A stretch of DNA of 50,702 nt from a virus. The stretch is from the UHGV virus genome UHGV-0140686, one strand, 5' to 3'. The position numbers are program-made. Positions 9,001 through 12,000 of this stretch are shown one piece after another. How positions within the stretch are numbered: the first letter of the stretch is position 1; each line of letters starts with the position of its first letter.

Positions 9001-12000
9001 GCCCGGAACGGGCTCTAACTCTGGATCGACAATGATAATGTCGCCTTCTTTAAAGTCAGGCTCCATTGAATCACCTTCTATCCTTAGTGCAAAAGTAAAC
9101 TCAGAAATATCAAGGTCTGTCATGATGTATTCGAAGCTACCATCAAATGCATCAATTGGGTGTTTTTCTGCTAATGCCCCAGCCTGGACGTAACTGATCA
9201 AAGGTACTTTCCTTGAATTCACATCGGCAAGAGCCATAAAAGGCCCACCGTTCATCAACCATGTTGGGTCGCACTTAAGTGCTTTGCTTATTCCTACAAT
9301 GTTGCGAGGCTTTTTAGTTTTTCCATCTTCAATGCTGGCCCATGATTGTTGCCTTATTCCTGCCTTTTCAGCGGCTTGCTCTTGAGTAAGACCAAGTTCG
9401 ATTCTTTTTTGCTTTACGCGTTCTGCAAGGCTCATAGCTCCTCCATTCCCATGGCCTCATGGTCACAGTTTAAACTGTGATTGACAAACAGTAGTATCTG
9501 TTCAAAAATACAGATAAAACTGTGGAGGTGTTATGGAATCAATTTCTCAAAGATTAAAGAATAAACGTGAAGAGATGAATCTCTCACAAGCGCAATTGGC
9601 TGAATTGGTCGGAATGACCCAGCAGTCATTACAAGCGATCGAGGCGGGTTTAACAAAGAGGCCCCGTTACATCATTGAATTATCTTCAGCCCTGCATTGC
9701 GATCCTCATTGGTTGCTCTATGGCGAGGGTGCTAATCAGAACGATAGCGCTTCAGGGGTGTAACAGAAACCACAGAGGTAGGGGGTAAGCCGTGGGTATA
9801 GAACCAGAATGGAAAGTTGATAAGCAGCCGGCTTGGCTGGTAGCTGCGATTAAAAAAACGATCACTGATTTGGACGGCGGCTATGTAGAAGCAGCGGAAT
9901 GGCTGGGTGTTACTGAAAACGCATTGTTTAACCGCTTACGTGCCGATGGAGATCAGATTTTTCCTCTCGGATGGGCAATGGTCCTGCAGCGGGCTGGTGG
10001 GTCAAATCATATCGCCAATGCGATAGCGCGCCACTCGAACGGGGTCTTTGTACCGCTGGCAGATATTGATGATGTGGACAACGCCGATATTAACCATCGC
10101 CTGATGGAGTCTATCGAGTGGATCGGAAAGCACTCGCAATATCTCCGTAAAGCTACAGCTGACGGTGTTATTGACCAGGCCGAACGCGAGCAGATTGAGG
10201 AGAACAGCTATCAGGTGATGGCGAAATGGCAGGAACATCTGACGTTGCTTTTCCGCGTCTTCTGTCAGCCAGAAAAGAGTGACGCCCGCGAGTGTGCAGC
10301 TCCGGGCGTCGTGGCAGATAAATCAACGTGTATGGAGAAATGATCCGCATGAGCAATTTAATCGTAAATCTTCACTTACCGCAACTACGGATGTACCCGG
10401 TCCCGGGTGTTTCGTCGTTTCGGTATGAGCGCATGGTAGGCGGAAAGTGGGTCGAATGTAACCACAGTAGGGCGCGTGGAGTTGTGGGGGTCTTTAACCG
10501 GAGGGCTAAGGCGTTATGCGAGAAGTTAACCGGAAGTTCAAAGACCACTACGGTAAGCCCGTCAAGGTCATCCGCTGGGAGCCAGAAACGCAGCGTGTCA
10601 TCTTCCTGCGAGAAGGGTATCCCCATGAGTGCTTTAGCCCACTCGATCAGTTCAAACGTAAGTTCAGGGAAGTAGAGGGCAGCCATGAGCAGTAAATTGC
10701 ACGGTCTGGTTTGGGAAGCATGTGCTTTCAAAGGCCTGATCATATCCGAAATAGCGGTCATGGCCCGCCTGGCTGACTTCAGTAACGATGAAGGCGTGTC
10801 CTGGCCCGCGGTAACGACAATTCAGCGCCAGATCGGTGCTAAGAGTGAGAACACCGTACGCAGTGCTATTAAAAAGCTGGAAGCAAAAGGGTGGCTGAAG
10901 AAACAAGAGCGCCGGGTTGGTGGGAAGAATAACTCGAACGTCTACAAACTCAACGTAGACATGCTGGAGCGTGCAGCTGCAGAGGCAAAACTTTTCTATT
11001 CACCTCCTAAGGAGCAATCAAAATTTGAGGCCTCAGAAATTGAGGGTTCAAAATTTGAAGGGTCAAAATCTGAGGCCTCAAATAATGGGTCTGCACCACC
11101 TCAAATATTGACGGGGGACCCCTCAATGGTTGAAGGCGATCCGTCATTAGATCCGTCATTAGATCCGTCATCTAAAAAACCTTCTTGTCGGGTTCCTGCG
11201 GATCCCGACGATAAGACGGATCCTGAAGTGGTTATTACCGATCATGCGATCGAAGTTCTGGCCCACCTGAACCAGGTCAGCGGTTCCCGTTTCCAGAAAT
11301 CAAAATCCTCCCTGGAAAACATCCGTGCCCGTCTACGCGATGGACATGCCGTCAGCGACCTGAAACTGGTTATCGACCTGAAGCATGAGCACTGGCATGA
11401 AAACGACGAGCAATACCAGTACATGCGACCTGAGACGCTCTTTGGCCCAAAAAAATTCGAAGGCTATCTGCAAAGCGCTATCCGCTGGGATGCTAAAGGC
11501 CGGCCGCCAAGAGAGGCTTGGGACAAAAACAAGCCACGAGATATCAATTCAGTAAGTCCGGTACAAAACACAATTCCAGCGGGGTTCCGGGGATGATTAT
11601 TGCGAAATCGGCATTCGAGTTTATCGAGAAAAACCCAGGGGTGATGATGCGGGACATCATTGCAGCATTCCCTCAGTGCAACCCCATGTCTGTGAAGAAC
11701 GCGGTACACCGCCTGTATTACGAGGGCCGTCTGGCGAGCGCCCAAACGTCGAGTGTATTTCGTTATCGTGTCGCCGGTAACCCTGACGGAAATGATCAAA
11801 ATCAGCCAGAGGATACCTCCGAAGCAATGCGCAATCTGGAACTGGTGGCGAGGAGCCTGGAAAGCCGGCGCTACTTCCGCCGGGCGGCGACGGTCTGGCA
11901 GCAGCTGTGCGATTCAAACTGCAGCGTTAAATCCAGAGAGCGTTATATGCGGATGAAAAATCAGTGTGTACGCAATGCCAAAAGTGGGATGAATTCCAGC

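What the first reader, a model, noticed from the sequence alone, without database searches (positions are those of the whole stretch)
11021..11173. Lambda-type origin: four 15-bp iterons plus a triple 12-bp repeat inside the O-like gene
Four head-to-tail 15-mers (11021..11080) followed by three tandem GATCCGTCATTA units (11138..11173) lie inside the replication initiator gene, as in the lambda ori/O arrangement. The 12-mers encode a DPSL repeat linker.
Basis: partly seen in the sequence, partly recalled or inferred. Interest (0 to 1): 0.35.

Follow-up and report, generated by a model that had tools for sequence, protein, structure and literature searches.

The report
Phage replication origin inside initiator gene
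The repeats are real and almost certainly mark a prophage's replication origin, written into the floppy linker of its own initiator gene as in phage lambda, but with an unrelated initiator protein and a conserved pair or trio of GATC methylation sites where lambda has an AT-rich tract.

Summary
Four head-to-tail 15-mers lie at 11018-11077, with a degenerate fifth and two spaced copies at 11101 and 11123. Three GATCCGTCATTA units lie at 11138-11173. All sit in frame in the 303-aa gene 10685-11596.

The lambda-like reading is supported by comparison, not by homology.
- The protein is HTH_36 + Phg_2220_C, not lambda O (no PF04492; hhalign probability 0.2%).
- Across 79 non-redundant relatives at 35-99% identity, the linker carries in-frame 15-bp palindromic iterons, with phased runs of 1-8 copies.
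- The iteron dialect tracks the variant of the winged-helix domain.
- Synonymous sites are nearly frozen across aa 105-174. Relative entropy is 0.32 there, against 0.74 and 0.71 in the two folded domains.
- This stretch coincides with the predicted disordered segment.
- Natural chimeras join this N-domain and repeat cassette to a lambda-O C-terminus (E 1e-28).

The 12-mers are more than a linker. They are the local form of a family-wide pair of GATCC sites. The Asp codon there is always GAT (79/79 and 74/74), whereas iteron Asp-Pro codons are GAC (120 of 121).

Function has not been tested by experiment. I rate it a new variant of a known kind, of moderate interest.

The parts
10685..11596 (+). 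Replication initiator gene (303 aa): winged helix-turn-helix N-domain, disordered linker, Phg_2220_C helical C-domain.
   Evidence: ORF. Pfam HTH_36 scores 37.2 bits (cut-off 25) at aa 22-71 and Phg_2220_C scores 82.7 bits (cut-off 27) at aa 191-263. PHROG 428 'replication initiation protein' E 3.9e-62. AlphaFold domains.
10685..10999 (+). Coding region of the N-terminal winged-helix DNA-binding domain (aa 1-105), the presumed iteron binder.
   Evidence: The model shows helices 3-16, 20-31, 43-50 and 55-68, a beta-hairpin wing at 71-76/85-89 and helix 91-105, with pLDDT mostly 70-89. The nearest solved folds are dimeric MarR/ArsR/TubR-type winged helices, weakly (E from 2.8e-3) (sequence match).
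10997..11206 (.). Proposed origin (ori): the stretch of the gene (aa 105-174) where synonymous sites are nearly invariant across the family.
   Evidence: Relative synonymous entropy is 0.315 in the linker against 0.741 and 0.708 in the two domains. Ser is TCA in 27/27, Cys TGT in 27/27, Val GTA in 22/22. The stretch coincides with the predicted disordered segment aa 109-173.
11018..11032 (.). Iteron 1, TCAAAATTTGAGGCC. The core TCAAA-A-TTTGA is an 11-bp palindrome.
   Evidence: and direct reading.
11033..11047 (.). Iteron 2, TCAGAAATTGAGGGT.
11048..11062 (.). Iteron 3, TCAAAATTTGAAGGG.
11063..11077 (.). Iteron 4, TCAAAATCTGAGGCC. Its core matches the consensus of the other (B-type) dialect in the family.
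11078..11092 (.). Degenerate fifth tandem unit, TCAAATAATGGGTCT.
   Evidence: 7-9 of 15 identical to units 1-4. It is kept in the window clade.
11099..11114 (.). Spaced iteron 6, CCTCAAATATTGACGG (core 11101-11111).
   Evidence: family D2; inverted repeat I3 with iteron 1, 92% complementary.
11121..11136 (.). Spaced iteron 7, CCTCAATGGTTGAAGG (core 11123-11133). It abuts the first GATC unit and sits where relatives have CAGAATCTGGCGGG.
   Evidence: Family alignment anchored on the first GATC site.
11138..11173 (.). Three 12-bp units GATCCGTCATTA / GATCCGTCATTA / GATCCGTCATCT, giving three Dam (GATC) sites 12 bp apart. This is the local form of the family-wide pair of GATCC sites.
   Evidence: Asp codon is GAT in 79/79 at site 1 and 74/74 at site 2, against GAC in 120 of 121 iteron Asp-Pro codons. 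GATC spacing is 24 bp in 69 loci, 18 bp in 5 and 12 bp in 5.
11174..11194 (.). A6 tract plus the conserved block CCTTCTTGTCGGGTT at the right edge of the constrained DNA. Together with the 12-mers it forms the least stable duplex of the gene and is the candidate unwinding or loading zone.
   Evidence: Conservation of AAAAAACCTTCTTGTCCGGTT across loci. The lowest-stability 30-mers of the gene start at 11146-11159 (96th percentile of the window).
11222..11497 (+). Coding region of the helical C-terminal domain (aa 180-271, Phg_2220_C), the presumed recruiter of the host helicase machinery.
   Evidence: Weak DnaT C-terminal similarity at profile positions 241-285, E 0.009.
12224..13174 (+). Phage-encoded Dam (N6-adenine, GATC-type) methyltransferase, two genes downstream. 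It is a possible partner of the GATC sites in the origin.
   Evidence: Pfam Dam E 3.6e-44. A homologue lies within the fetched flanks in 43 of 78 non-redundant related loci, often directly after the initiator gene (example).

Best explanation
Window 10997-11206 is the replication origin of a lambdoid prophage, embedded in the disordered interdomain linker of its own initiator gene (10685-11596).

Proposed mechanism:
1. Dimers of the N-terminal winged-helix domain (aa 1-105) bind the 11-bp palindromic cores TCAAA-N-TTTGA. There are four contiguous 15-bp iterons, a degenerate fifth and two spaced copies. Together they form an O-some-like nucleoprotein array (inferred).
2. Immediately to the right lies a second conserved module: three GATCCGTCATTA units, an A6 tract and CCTTCTTGTCGGG. 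It is the least stable part of the gene. I take it to be where the duplex is opened or the helicase is loaded.
3. Its GATC sites would make firing sensitive to Dam methylation state, either through SeqA binding to hemimethylated sites or through easier melting. This is by analogy with the GATC-bearing 13-mers of oriC and the GATC heptamers of P1 oriR (inferred).
4. The C-terminal Phg_2220_C domain recruits the host helicase system. No P-, DnaC- or DnaB-like gene is found in this operon (inferred).

Shown here: the repeats, their dyad symmetry, their position, their DNA-level conservation and their co-variation with the initiator. Inferred only: binding, unwinding and methylation dependence.
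For: - The repeats are real and far above chance.
- The gene is a phage replication initiator by family: HTH_36 + Phg_2220_C, PHROG 428 and 391.
- It sits after cI, cro, a CII-like gene and a DUF4222 gene, the slot O occupies in lambda.
- A complete 44-kb circular relative has no other annotated replication gene.
- In 27 full-length non-redundant relatives, relative synonymous entropy is 0.315 in the linker against 0.741 and 0.708 in the folded domains. It is about zero from aa 105 to 174.
- That segment is predicted disordered, with pLDDT below 50 at aa 109-173. The constraint is therefore on DNA, not on protein fold.
- Invariant motif positions alternate with freely varying positions.
- The longest phased iteron run ranges from 1 to 8 across 79 loci. 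One close relative lacks two units (P0007).
- Iteron dialect follows the helix-turn-helix variant. LVWE/TIQRQIGAKS initiators carry TCAA-NNN-TTGA; YVWD/TIARQLGAG initiators carry TCA(A/G)AATCTGA.
- GATC is selected at the DNA level. The Asp codon is GAT in 79/79 and 74/74 at the two conserved sites and GAC in 120 of 121 iteron Asp-Pro codons. Asp in the N-domain is 147 GAC to 138 GAT.
- Modularity: the Providencia relative L072 joins the same N-domain, iterons and GATC pair to lambda-O residues 140-276 (38% identity, E 1e-28) and to DNA resembling lambda's right ori arm.
- phiP27 L17 joins the same cassette to a different C-terminus, followed by DnaC-like and DnaB-like genes.
- A phage Dam gene lies within the fetched flanks in 43 of 78 related loci.
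- Other lambdoid phages are already reported to carry their own iterons inside unrelated ori-binding genes (bioRxiv 10.1101/2020.10.05.325894).
- The lambda ori layout is described in PMC7466680, and the methylatable oriC 13-mers in PMC5043065.
Against: - There is no experimental evidence. Binding, unwinding and autonomous replication are all inferred.
- There is no marked AT-rich tract. Minimum GC in 40-bp windows is 0.325-0.375, and the least stable 30-mer reaches only the 96th percentile of the window.
- A 15-bp period places neighbouring sites about 1.4 helical turns apart. This is unlike lambda's 20-24 bp spacing or helically phased plasmid iterons.
- GATC spacings of 12, 18 and 24 bp are not all in helical phase, which is not ideal for a pure SeqA model.
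- All hosts are Dam-positive Enterobacterales, so no natural Dam-negative control exists.
- The four further GATC sites at 11201-11248 are not conserved even in 90%-identical relatives.
- The related sequences are not independent. The balanced N-domain codon counts argue against simple inheritance but do not remove this caveat.
Confidence: 0.78

Rival explanations
1. The repeats are a low-complexity, disordered peptide linker (SKFEG and DPSL repeats) that expanded by slippage. The DNA has no cis-acting role.
For: The region encodes a segment predicted disordered. The repeats are in frame and vary in copy number, as slippage-prone linkers do.
Against: Synonymous sites are nearly frozen exactly here, with entropy 0.315 against about 0.72 in the domains. 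Ser is always TCA out of six possible codons. The GAT/GAC partition is absolute, 79/79 against 1/121. A disordered linker should show the opposite pattern, with free synonymous and non-synonymous drift.
Confidence: 0.04
2. The conserved DNA is a recombination junction. Frequent exchange between phage modules keeps this short stretch similar, so conservation reflects recent shared descent rather than function as an origin.
For: C-terminal domains are swapped just after the second GATC site: Phg_2220_C, lambda-O type and phiP27 type. Lambdoid mosaic boundaries are known to fall at such linkers (established knowledge).
Against: Conservation is position-specific. Motif bases are invariant while interspersed bases vary freely, such as the 3-nt iteron spacers and the segment between the array and the last iteron. 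Iteron dialects co-vary with the DNA-binding domain, which recombination alone does not predict. The two ideas are compatible: lambda's ori is also a module boundary.
Confidence: 0.08
3. The iterons are binding sites for the gene's own product but act as autoregulatory or copy-control operators. The site where replication starts is elsewhere in the prophage.
For: Iterons in plasmids also act in control by 'handcuffing' (PMC5043065). No strong AT-rich unwinding element lies next to them.
Against: No other copy of the iteron cluster occurs in the 50.7-kb window; the one stray match at 36911 fits chance. The adjacent GATC, A6 and CCTTCTTGTCC block is conserved with the iterons as a single cassette across the family. 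In the chimeras it abuts DNA resembling lambda's right ori arm.
Confidence: 0.08
4. Sub-rival for the 12-mers only: GATCCGTCA is the recognition site of a specific protein, such as a second contact of the initiator, ATP-DnaA-type 6-mers or another host factor. The GATC inside it is incidental and unrelated to methylation.
For: Site 1 is GATCCGTCA in 67 of 79 loci, which is more than GATC alone. GATC spacings of 12, 18 and 24 bp are not all in helical phase. Only 55% of loci carry a phage Dam gene in the flanks.
Against: The most conserved part is GATC(C). At site 2 the bases after GATCC vary (CCATCA, CCACAA, CCATTA), and one Pro-to-Gln change keeps GATC (GATCAATCA). There are no DnaA boxes in or near the gene.
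Confidence: 0.3

Closest known systems
Phage lambda ori inside gene O (and Stx-phage variants with six iterons)
   Same: The origin lies in the middle of the initiator gene, between a DNA-binding N-domain and a C-domain that recruits the helicase machinery. It is a tandem array of dyad-symmetric iterons presumably bound by dimers. Iteron number differs between relatives (lambda annotation; PMC7466680). The motif even looks alike: CCTCAAAA..GAGG here and in lambda's TCCCTCAAAACGAGGGA. Relatives carry a true lambda-O C-terminus.
   Different: The initiator is not homologous to O, with no PF04492 match and hhalign probability 0.2%. The iterons are 15-bp and contiguous rather than 18 bp spaced 20-24 bp start to start. 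A GATC-repeat module stands where lambda has a roughly 40-bp AT-rich tract. No P gene follows.
P22 gene 18 and phage L gene 18 origins
   Same: These are lambdoid phages whose distantly related ori-binding proteins each carry their own iterons inside their coding region (bioRxiv 10.1101/2020.10.05.325894). This is the same kind of arrangement with a non-O initiator.
   Different: The iteron sequences and lengths differ (about 20 bp in P22, the 11-bp TGTCCAACGGA in L). Those phages encode a DnaB-type helicase (gene 12). That paper describes no conserved GATC module.
Replisome organizers of Gram-positive phages (for example SPP1 G38P, with an origin inside gene 38) and DnaD-like proteins
   Same: Phg_2220_C is shared with many Staphylococcus, Streptococcus and Bacillus phage 'replication initiation' or 'replisome organizer' genes. 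Having the origin in the organizer's own gene is established knowledge for SPP1.
   Different: Only the C-domain is shared, at 36-42% identity over about 75-90 aa. The N-domain, the iterons and the GATC module are specific to Enterobacterales.
Dam-methylation-sensitive origins: oriC 13-mers (GATCTnTTnTTTT) and the GATC heptamers of the P1 oriR core
   Same: Short direct repeats, each carrying GATC, lie directly beside the initiator-binding sites in the region that opens. The GATC sites are conserved beyond coding need. The oriC 13-mers carry adenine methylation sites thought to favour strand separation, and SeqA binds there (PMC5043065). The P1 details rest on my own knowledge.
   Different: The units here are 12-mers of 42% GC, not AT-rich 13-mers. 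There are no DnaA boxes. Methylation dependence is untested.

Membership tests
Lambda O / ori-lambda | Initiator N-domain belongs to Phage_rep_O (PF04492). | tested here: not met
   There is no PF04492 hit at E<=0.01 for the window protein. Lambda O itself scores 123 bits. hhalign of the family profile against lambda O gives probability 0.2%.
Lambda O / ori-lambda | An array of dyad-symmetric iterons in the middle of the initiator gene, between the N- and C-domains. | tested here: met
   Iterons lie at 11018-11136 in the linker, aa 112-151. The linker is predicted disordered between the two folded domains. The cores are palindromic, TCAAA-A-TTTGA (and direct reading).
Lambda O / ori-lambda | Iterons of about 18-19 bp spaced about 20-24 bp start to start. 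| tested here: not met
   Lambda's iterons are 18 bp long and start at 39034, 39054, 39078 and 39101. Here the units are 15 bp and contiguous, followed by start-to-start spacings of 38 and 22 bp.
Lambda O / ori-lambda | An AT-rich tract of about 40 bp immediately right of the iterons. | tested here: not met
   To the right of the iterons (11100-11200) GC in 40-bp windows stays at or above 0.375. The least stable 30-mer, starting at 11156, reaches only the 96th percentile of the window. GATC 12-mers and an A6 tract take that position.
Lambda O / ori-lambda | A P-type helicase loader gene directly downstream, and an O C-domain that binds it. | tested here: not met
   The downstream genes are PerC-like, Dam, a C5-methyltransferase, a LexA-DNA-binding-like gene, RusA and so on. 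The window C-domain is Phg_2220_C. Relatives such as L072 do have the lambda-O C-domain.
Lambda O / ori-lambda | Initiator-dependent replication from the fragment. | not testable with these tools
   This needs a plasmid replication assay.
HTH_36 + Phg_2220_C phage replication initiators (PHROG 428; TIGR02220-type) | Both Pfam domains score above their gathering thresholds, in N-to-C order. | tested here: met
   HTH_36 scores 37.2 bits (cut-off 25) at aa 22-71. Phg_2220_C scores 82.7 bits (cut-off 27) at aa 191-263. PHROG 428 E 3.9e-62. 1554 homologues have E<=1e-3.
Iteron plasmid origins (RepA, pi or RepE type) | Iterons in helical phase (about 22 bp), bound by monomers, with adjacent DnaA boxes and an AT-rich region. 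| tested here: not met
   The repeats have a 15-bp period and are palindromic. There is no DnaA box within the gene; the nearest one-mismatch match is at 10073.
Dam/SeqA-controlled origins (oriC 13-mers, P1 oriR core) | Repeated units carrying GATC next to the initiator sites, with GATC conserved beyond coding need. | tested here: met
   Three GATC sites lie 12 bp apart, abutting the last iteron. GAT is used in 79/79 and 74/74 at the conserved sites, against 1/121 in the iterons.
Dam/SeqA-controlled origins (oriC 13-mers, P1 oriR core) | Origin activity or sequestration depends on GATC methylation, with SeqA binding. | not testable with these tools
   This needs dam and seqA genetics or binding assays. 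The only indirect hint is a phage Dam gene within the flanks of 43 of 78 loci.

The most novel reading that the evidence does not exclude
A large family of Enterobacterales prophages uses a previously undescribed origin cassette: a palindromic 15-bp iteron array plus a strictly conserved pair or trio of GATC sites, written into the disordered linker of a non-O initiator. The family is currently annotated as 'conserved phage C-terminal domain protein' or 'GntR regulator'. In this reading the GATC module acts as a methylation switch. Hemimethylated sites bound by SeqA would block re-firing, or full methylation by the phage's own adjacent Dam would license firing. Phage replication would thereby be coupled to Dam state, and the cassette would move as a unit between different helicase-recruiting C-domains.
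Probability: 0.3. Interest if true: 0.6.

Novelty: new variant of a known kind. Interest (0 to 1): 0.4.

Why it matters
The initiator family is widespread in Klebsiella, Salmonella, Enterobacter, Citrobacter, E. coli and Shigella (SfII-type, phiP27), Yersinia, Proteus and Providencia. RefSeq mostly labels it a generic 'conserved phage C-terminal domain' or 'GntR' protein.

- Recognising the embedded origin gives a usable annotation rule for the ori of many prophages.
- It explains why a disordered linker is the most DNA-conserved part of the gene.
- It yields a clean experiment. Synonymous GAT-to-GAC changes remove the Dam sites without altering the protein, which tests whether a phage origin is gated by adenine methylation.
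- It provides a natural set of initiator and iteron specificity pairs, and of domain-swapped chimeras, for studying how origin specificity and helicase recruitment are combined.

Tried and rejected
- Overlapping gene as the cause of the synonymous constraint: rejected. Across 79 loci the other plus-strand frames are never open over the core, and the minus-strand frames are open in 0, 12 and 33 loci.
- Structured RNA, promoter or terminator: no Rfam match at E<=1 in 9000-13000. No sigma-70-like promoter or intrinsic terminator in 10400-11800.
- DnaA boxes: none in or next to the gene.
- Homology to lambda O: none by Pfam or hhalign.
- Strong AT-rich unwinding element: not found.
- Literature: full-text searches for the motifs (GATCCGTCAGTAAA, TCAAAATTTGAGG, CAGAATCTGGCGGG and others) and for Phg_2220_C found nothing relevant. 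Searches on SfV, SfII and phiP27 replication found only genome descriptions that do not describe an origin.
- The 'P27' O protein and iterons studied in PMC7466680 are lambda-type (ATCCCTCAAAACGAGGGA). They do not correspond to the L17 gene of phiP27 record NC_003356, which belongs to the present family. That paper's seqA result therefore cannot be transferred.
- The fold search gave only generic winged-helix regulators at weak E-values.
- The extra GATC sites at 11201, 11219, 11240 and 11248 were considered part of the element but are not conserved in relatives.
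Full report
**1. 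The observation**

The sequence at 11018-11173 is as described.
- Tandem Repeats Finder reports a period-15 array at 11018-11082 (4.4 copies) and a perfect period-12 array at 11138-11171 (2.8 copies).
- The repeat finder places the 15-mers at 11018, 11033, 11048 and 11063.
- It places the 12-mers at 11138, 11150 and 11162, the last matching 10/12.
- The core TCARAAWYTGA occurs five times in the 50.7-kb window against 0.26 expected, and four of those are here.
- GATCCGTCA occurs three times against 0.34 expected, all here.
- All repeats are in frame in ORF 10685-11596 and read ...SKFEASEIEGSKFEGSKSEAS...GDPSLDPSLDPSS....
- Each iteron core is an 11-bp palindrome, TCAAA-A-TTTGA, often flanked by CC..GG (and direct reading).
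- Each 12-mer begins with GATC. The stretch 11138-11251 holds 7 GATC sites, the densest cluster in the window, where the mean is 4 per kb.

**2. The gene and its setting**

- The 303-aa product has an HTH_36 domain (aa 22-71) and a Phg_2220_C domain (aa 191-263), both above Pfam thresholds. It has no Phage_rep_O match.
- PHROGs place it in 'replication initiation protein' families.
- It follows a cI-like repressor (8803-9435, minus strand), cro, a CII/CP76-like gene and a DUF4222 gene.
- It is followed by a PerC-like gene, a Dam methyltransferase, a C5-cytosine methyltransferase, RusA, KilA-N, DUF968 and antiterminator Q.
- This is a lambdoid early-right operon with the gene in the O slot, but without any P-, DnaC- or DnaB-like gene.
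- An AlphaFold model shows a winged helix at aa 1-105, a disordered segment at aa 109-173 and a helical C-domain at aa 180-271.
- The iterons and the 12-mers therefore lie entirely in the disordered linker.
- The N-domain resembles dimeric MarR/ArsR/TubR-type winged helices, though only weakly.

**3. Relatives**

- The protein has 1554 homologues at E<=1e-3. Sources mostly name them 'conserved phage C-terminal domain-containing protein' or 'GntR family transcriptional regulator'.
- I fetched 160 loci from genomes and viral contigs, at 35-99% identity, and reduced them to 79 non-redundant ones.
- They come from Klebsiella, Raoultella, Salmonella, Kosakonia, Enterobacter, Citrobacter, Yersinia, Erwinia, Edwardsiella, Proteus, Providencia and others.
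- Every one has the same plan in the linker.
  - (a) A run of in-frame 15-bp units. The longest phased run ranges from 1 to 8.
  - (b) A short variable segment.
  - (c) A last, degenerate iteron.
  - (d) A conserved block: ...CAGAATCTGGSGGG GATCCGTCA GTAAAWTCAA.... GATCCATCA G.TAAAAAACC TTCTTGTCCGGTT.
- The window clade replaces the 24-bp GATC-to-GATC arrangement with three GATCCGTCATTA units 12 bp apart. An Erwinia/Morganella/Edwardsiella clade uses 18 bp.

**4. The constraint is on DNA**

- I built a codon alignment of 27 full-length non-redundant relatives. Relative synonymous entropy is 0.741 in the N-domain, 0.708 in the C-domain and 0.315 in the linker.
- It is essentially zero from window aa 105 to 174, which is nt 10997-11206. 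Ser is TCA in 27/27, Cys TGT in 27/27, Val GTA in 22/22 and GTT in 24/24.
- The clearest single result concerns the Asp codon.
  - At the two conserved Asp-Pro sites it is GAT in 79/79 and 74/74 loci, which creates GATC.
  - In the 121 Asp-Pro dipeptides of the iteron part it is GAC in 120.
  - Asp in the N-domain is 147 GAC to 138 GAT.
- One Pro-to-Gln replacement keeps GATC (GATCAATCA).
- Conserved bases alternate with freely varying ones, such as the 3-nt spacers between iteron cores and the segment before the last iteron. This argues for selection on particular bases rather than recent shared descent.
- An overlapping gene is excluded.
- No RNA family, promoter or terminator is detected.

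**5. Initiator and iterons co-vary**

- Initiators starting MSSKLHGLVWE, with helix TIQRQIGAKS.., carry TCAA-NNN-TTGA cores. This group includes the window clade.
- Initiators with ..YVWD.. and TIARQLGAG.STVRTAI carry TCA(A/G)AATCTGA.
- Proteus and Providencia show a third variant.
- The main discriminating base is core position 8: C in 88% of B-type units and T in 80% of A-type units. The unit-picking rule fixed positions 1-3 and 9-10, so only the other positions are informative.
- The window's four tandem units are intermediate between the two dialects. Unit 4, TCAAAATCTGA, is pure B-type.

**6. Modularity links the cassette to lambda**

- In Providencia locus L072 the same N-domain, iterons and GATC pair are followed by a C-terminal half homologous to lambda O residues 140-276 (38% identity, E 1e-28).
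- The DNA just after the second GATC reads ttcgtcgcagaattctgacgaatccagcgaccagcc. Lambda has ttcgtcagagaattctggcgaatcctctgaccagcc immediately right of its AT-rich tract.
- phiP27 gene L17, annotated 'unknown', has the same iterons and three GATC sites. It has yet another C-terminus and is followed by DnaC-like and DnaB-like genes.
- The N-domain, iterons and GATC block thus behave as one exchangeable specificity cassette, like lambda's O-N domain plus iterons.
- A complete 44-kb circular relative, deposited as a plasmid, has this gene as its only annotated replication function.

**7. Mechanism**

- Best-supported explanation: this is an origin of the lambdoid 'ori inside the initiator gene' kind. 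Dimers of the winged-helix domain bind the palindromic iterons.
- The adjacent GATC repeats, A6 tract and CCTTCTTGTC block form the least stable part of the gene. The lowest-stability 30-mers start at 11146-11159, although they reach only the 96th percentile of the window. I take this to be the opening or loading zone.
- The selected GATC sites point to control by Dam methylation or SeqA. The analogy is to the oriC 13-mers (PMC5043065) and to the P1 oriR core (my own knowledge).
- A phage Dam gene lies within the flanks in 43 of 78 relatives and in the window at 12224-13174.
- The C-domain presumably recruits host DnaB/DnaC. A weak DnaT-like match (E 0.009) is the only hint.
- Binding, unwinding and methylation dependence are inferences, not results.

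**8. Comparison and novelty**

- The layout matches lambda ori/O. It also matches the general rule that unrelated lambdoid ori-binding proteins carry their own iterons in their genes.
- It fails membership of the lambda-O family on protein homology, iteron size and spacing, the AT-rich tract and the P partner.
- I found no description of this family's iterons or its GATC module in the searchable literature. That library is incomplete.
- I rate it a new variant of a known kind: ordinary in principle, with a distinctive and testable GATC feature.

**9. Verdict**

- Observation: confirmed.
- Interpretation: partly supported. The arrangement is right. The 'O-like' label holds by analogy only. The iteron count is too low. 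The 12-mers are under-read.
- Confidence that this is the origin: about 0.78.
- Confidence that the GATC units act through methylation: about 0.5.
- Interest: 0.4.

Noticed in passing
window 12226-12416: A second GATC cluster lies at the 5' end of the phage Dam methyltransferase gene, with six sites in about 190 bp (12226, 12250, 12350, 12368, 12385, 12416). It may be self-regulatory or may be chance.
   Followed up: no
window 10685-10695 and 11593-11596: The DUF4222 gene (10516-10695) overlaps the initiator start by 11 nt. The initiator stop overlaps the ATG of the PerC-like gene (ATGA at 11593-11596). This suggests translational coupling along the operon. DUF4222 precedes the initiator in many relatives.
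   Followed up: partly
window 11593-19420: No P-, DnaC- or DnaB-like gene follows the initiator. The operon continues with PerC-like, Dam, a 695-aa C5-methyltransferase-like protein, a LexA-DNA-binding-domain protein, RusA, KilA-N, DUF968 and Q. How the helicase is recruited is open. phiP27 and Providencia relatives do carry loader or helicase genes.
   Followed up: partly
L066-L077 (Proteus/Providencia), L060 (Shigella), L162 (phiP27 L17): These are natural chimeras in which the same N-domain, iterons and GATC cassette is fused to different C-terminal domains. L072 has the lambda-O type (E 1e-28), and phiP27 has a different type. The junction lies just after the second GATC site.
   Followed up: yes
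L001, L032, L054: Contigs labelled Vagococcus sp., Chryseobacterium sp. and Martelella alba carry enterobacterial-type copies of this prophage gene. Contamination or mislabelled assemblies are likely.
   Followed up: no
window 11201, 11219, 11240, 11248: Four further GATC sites lie just downstream of the origin core in the window. They are not conserved even in relatives about 90% identical, so they are probably not part of the element.
   Followed up: yes
window 10685-11596 (annotation of homologues): RefSeq and UniRef name this family 'conserved phage C-terminal domain-containing protein' or 'GntR family transcriptional regulator'. Some phage records say 'replication protein O' or 'primosomal protein'. 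The annotation is inconsistent.
   Followed up: partly
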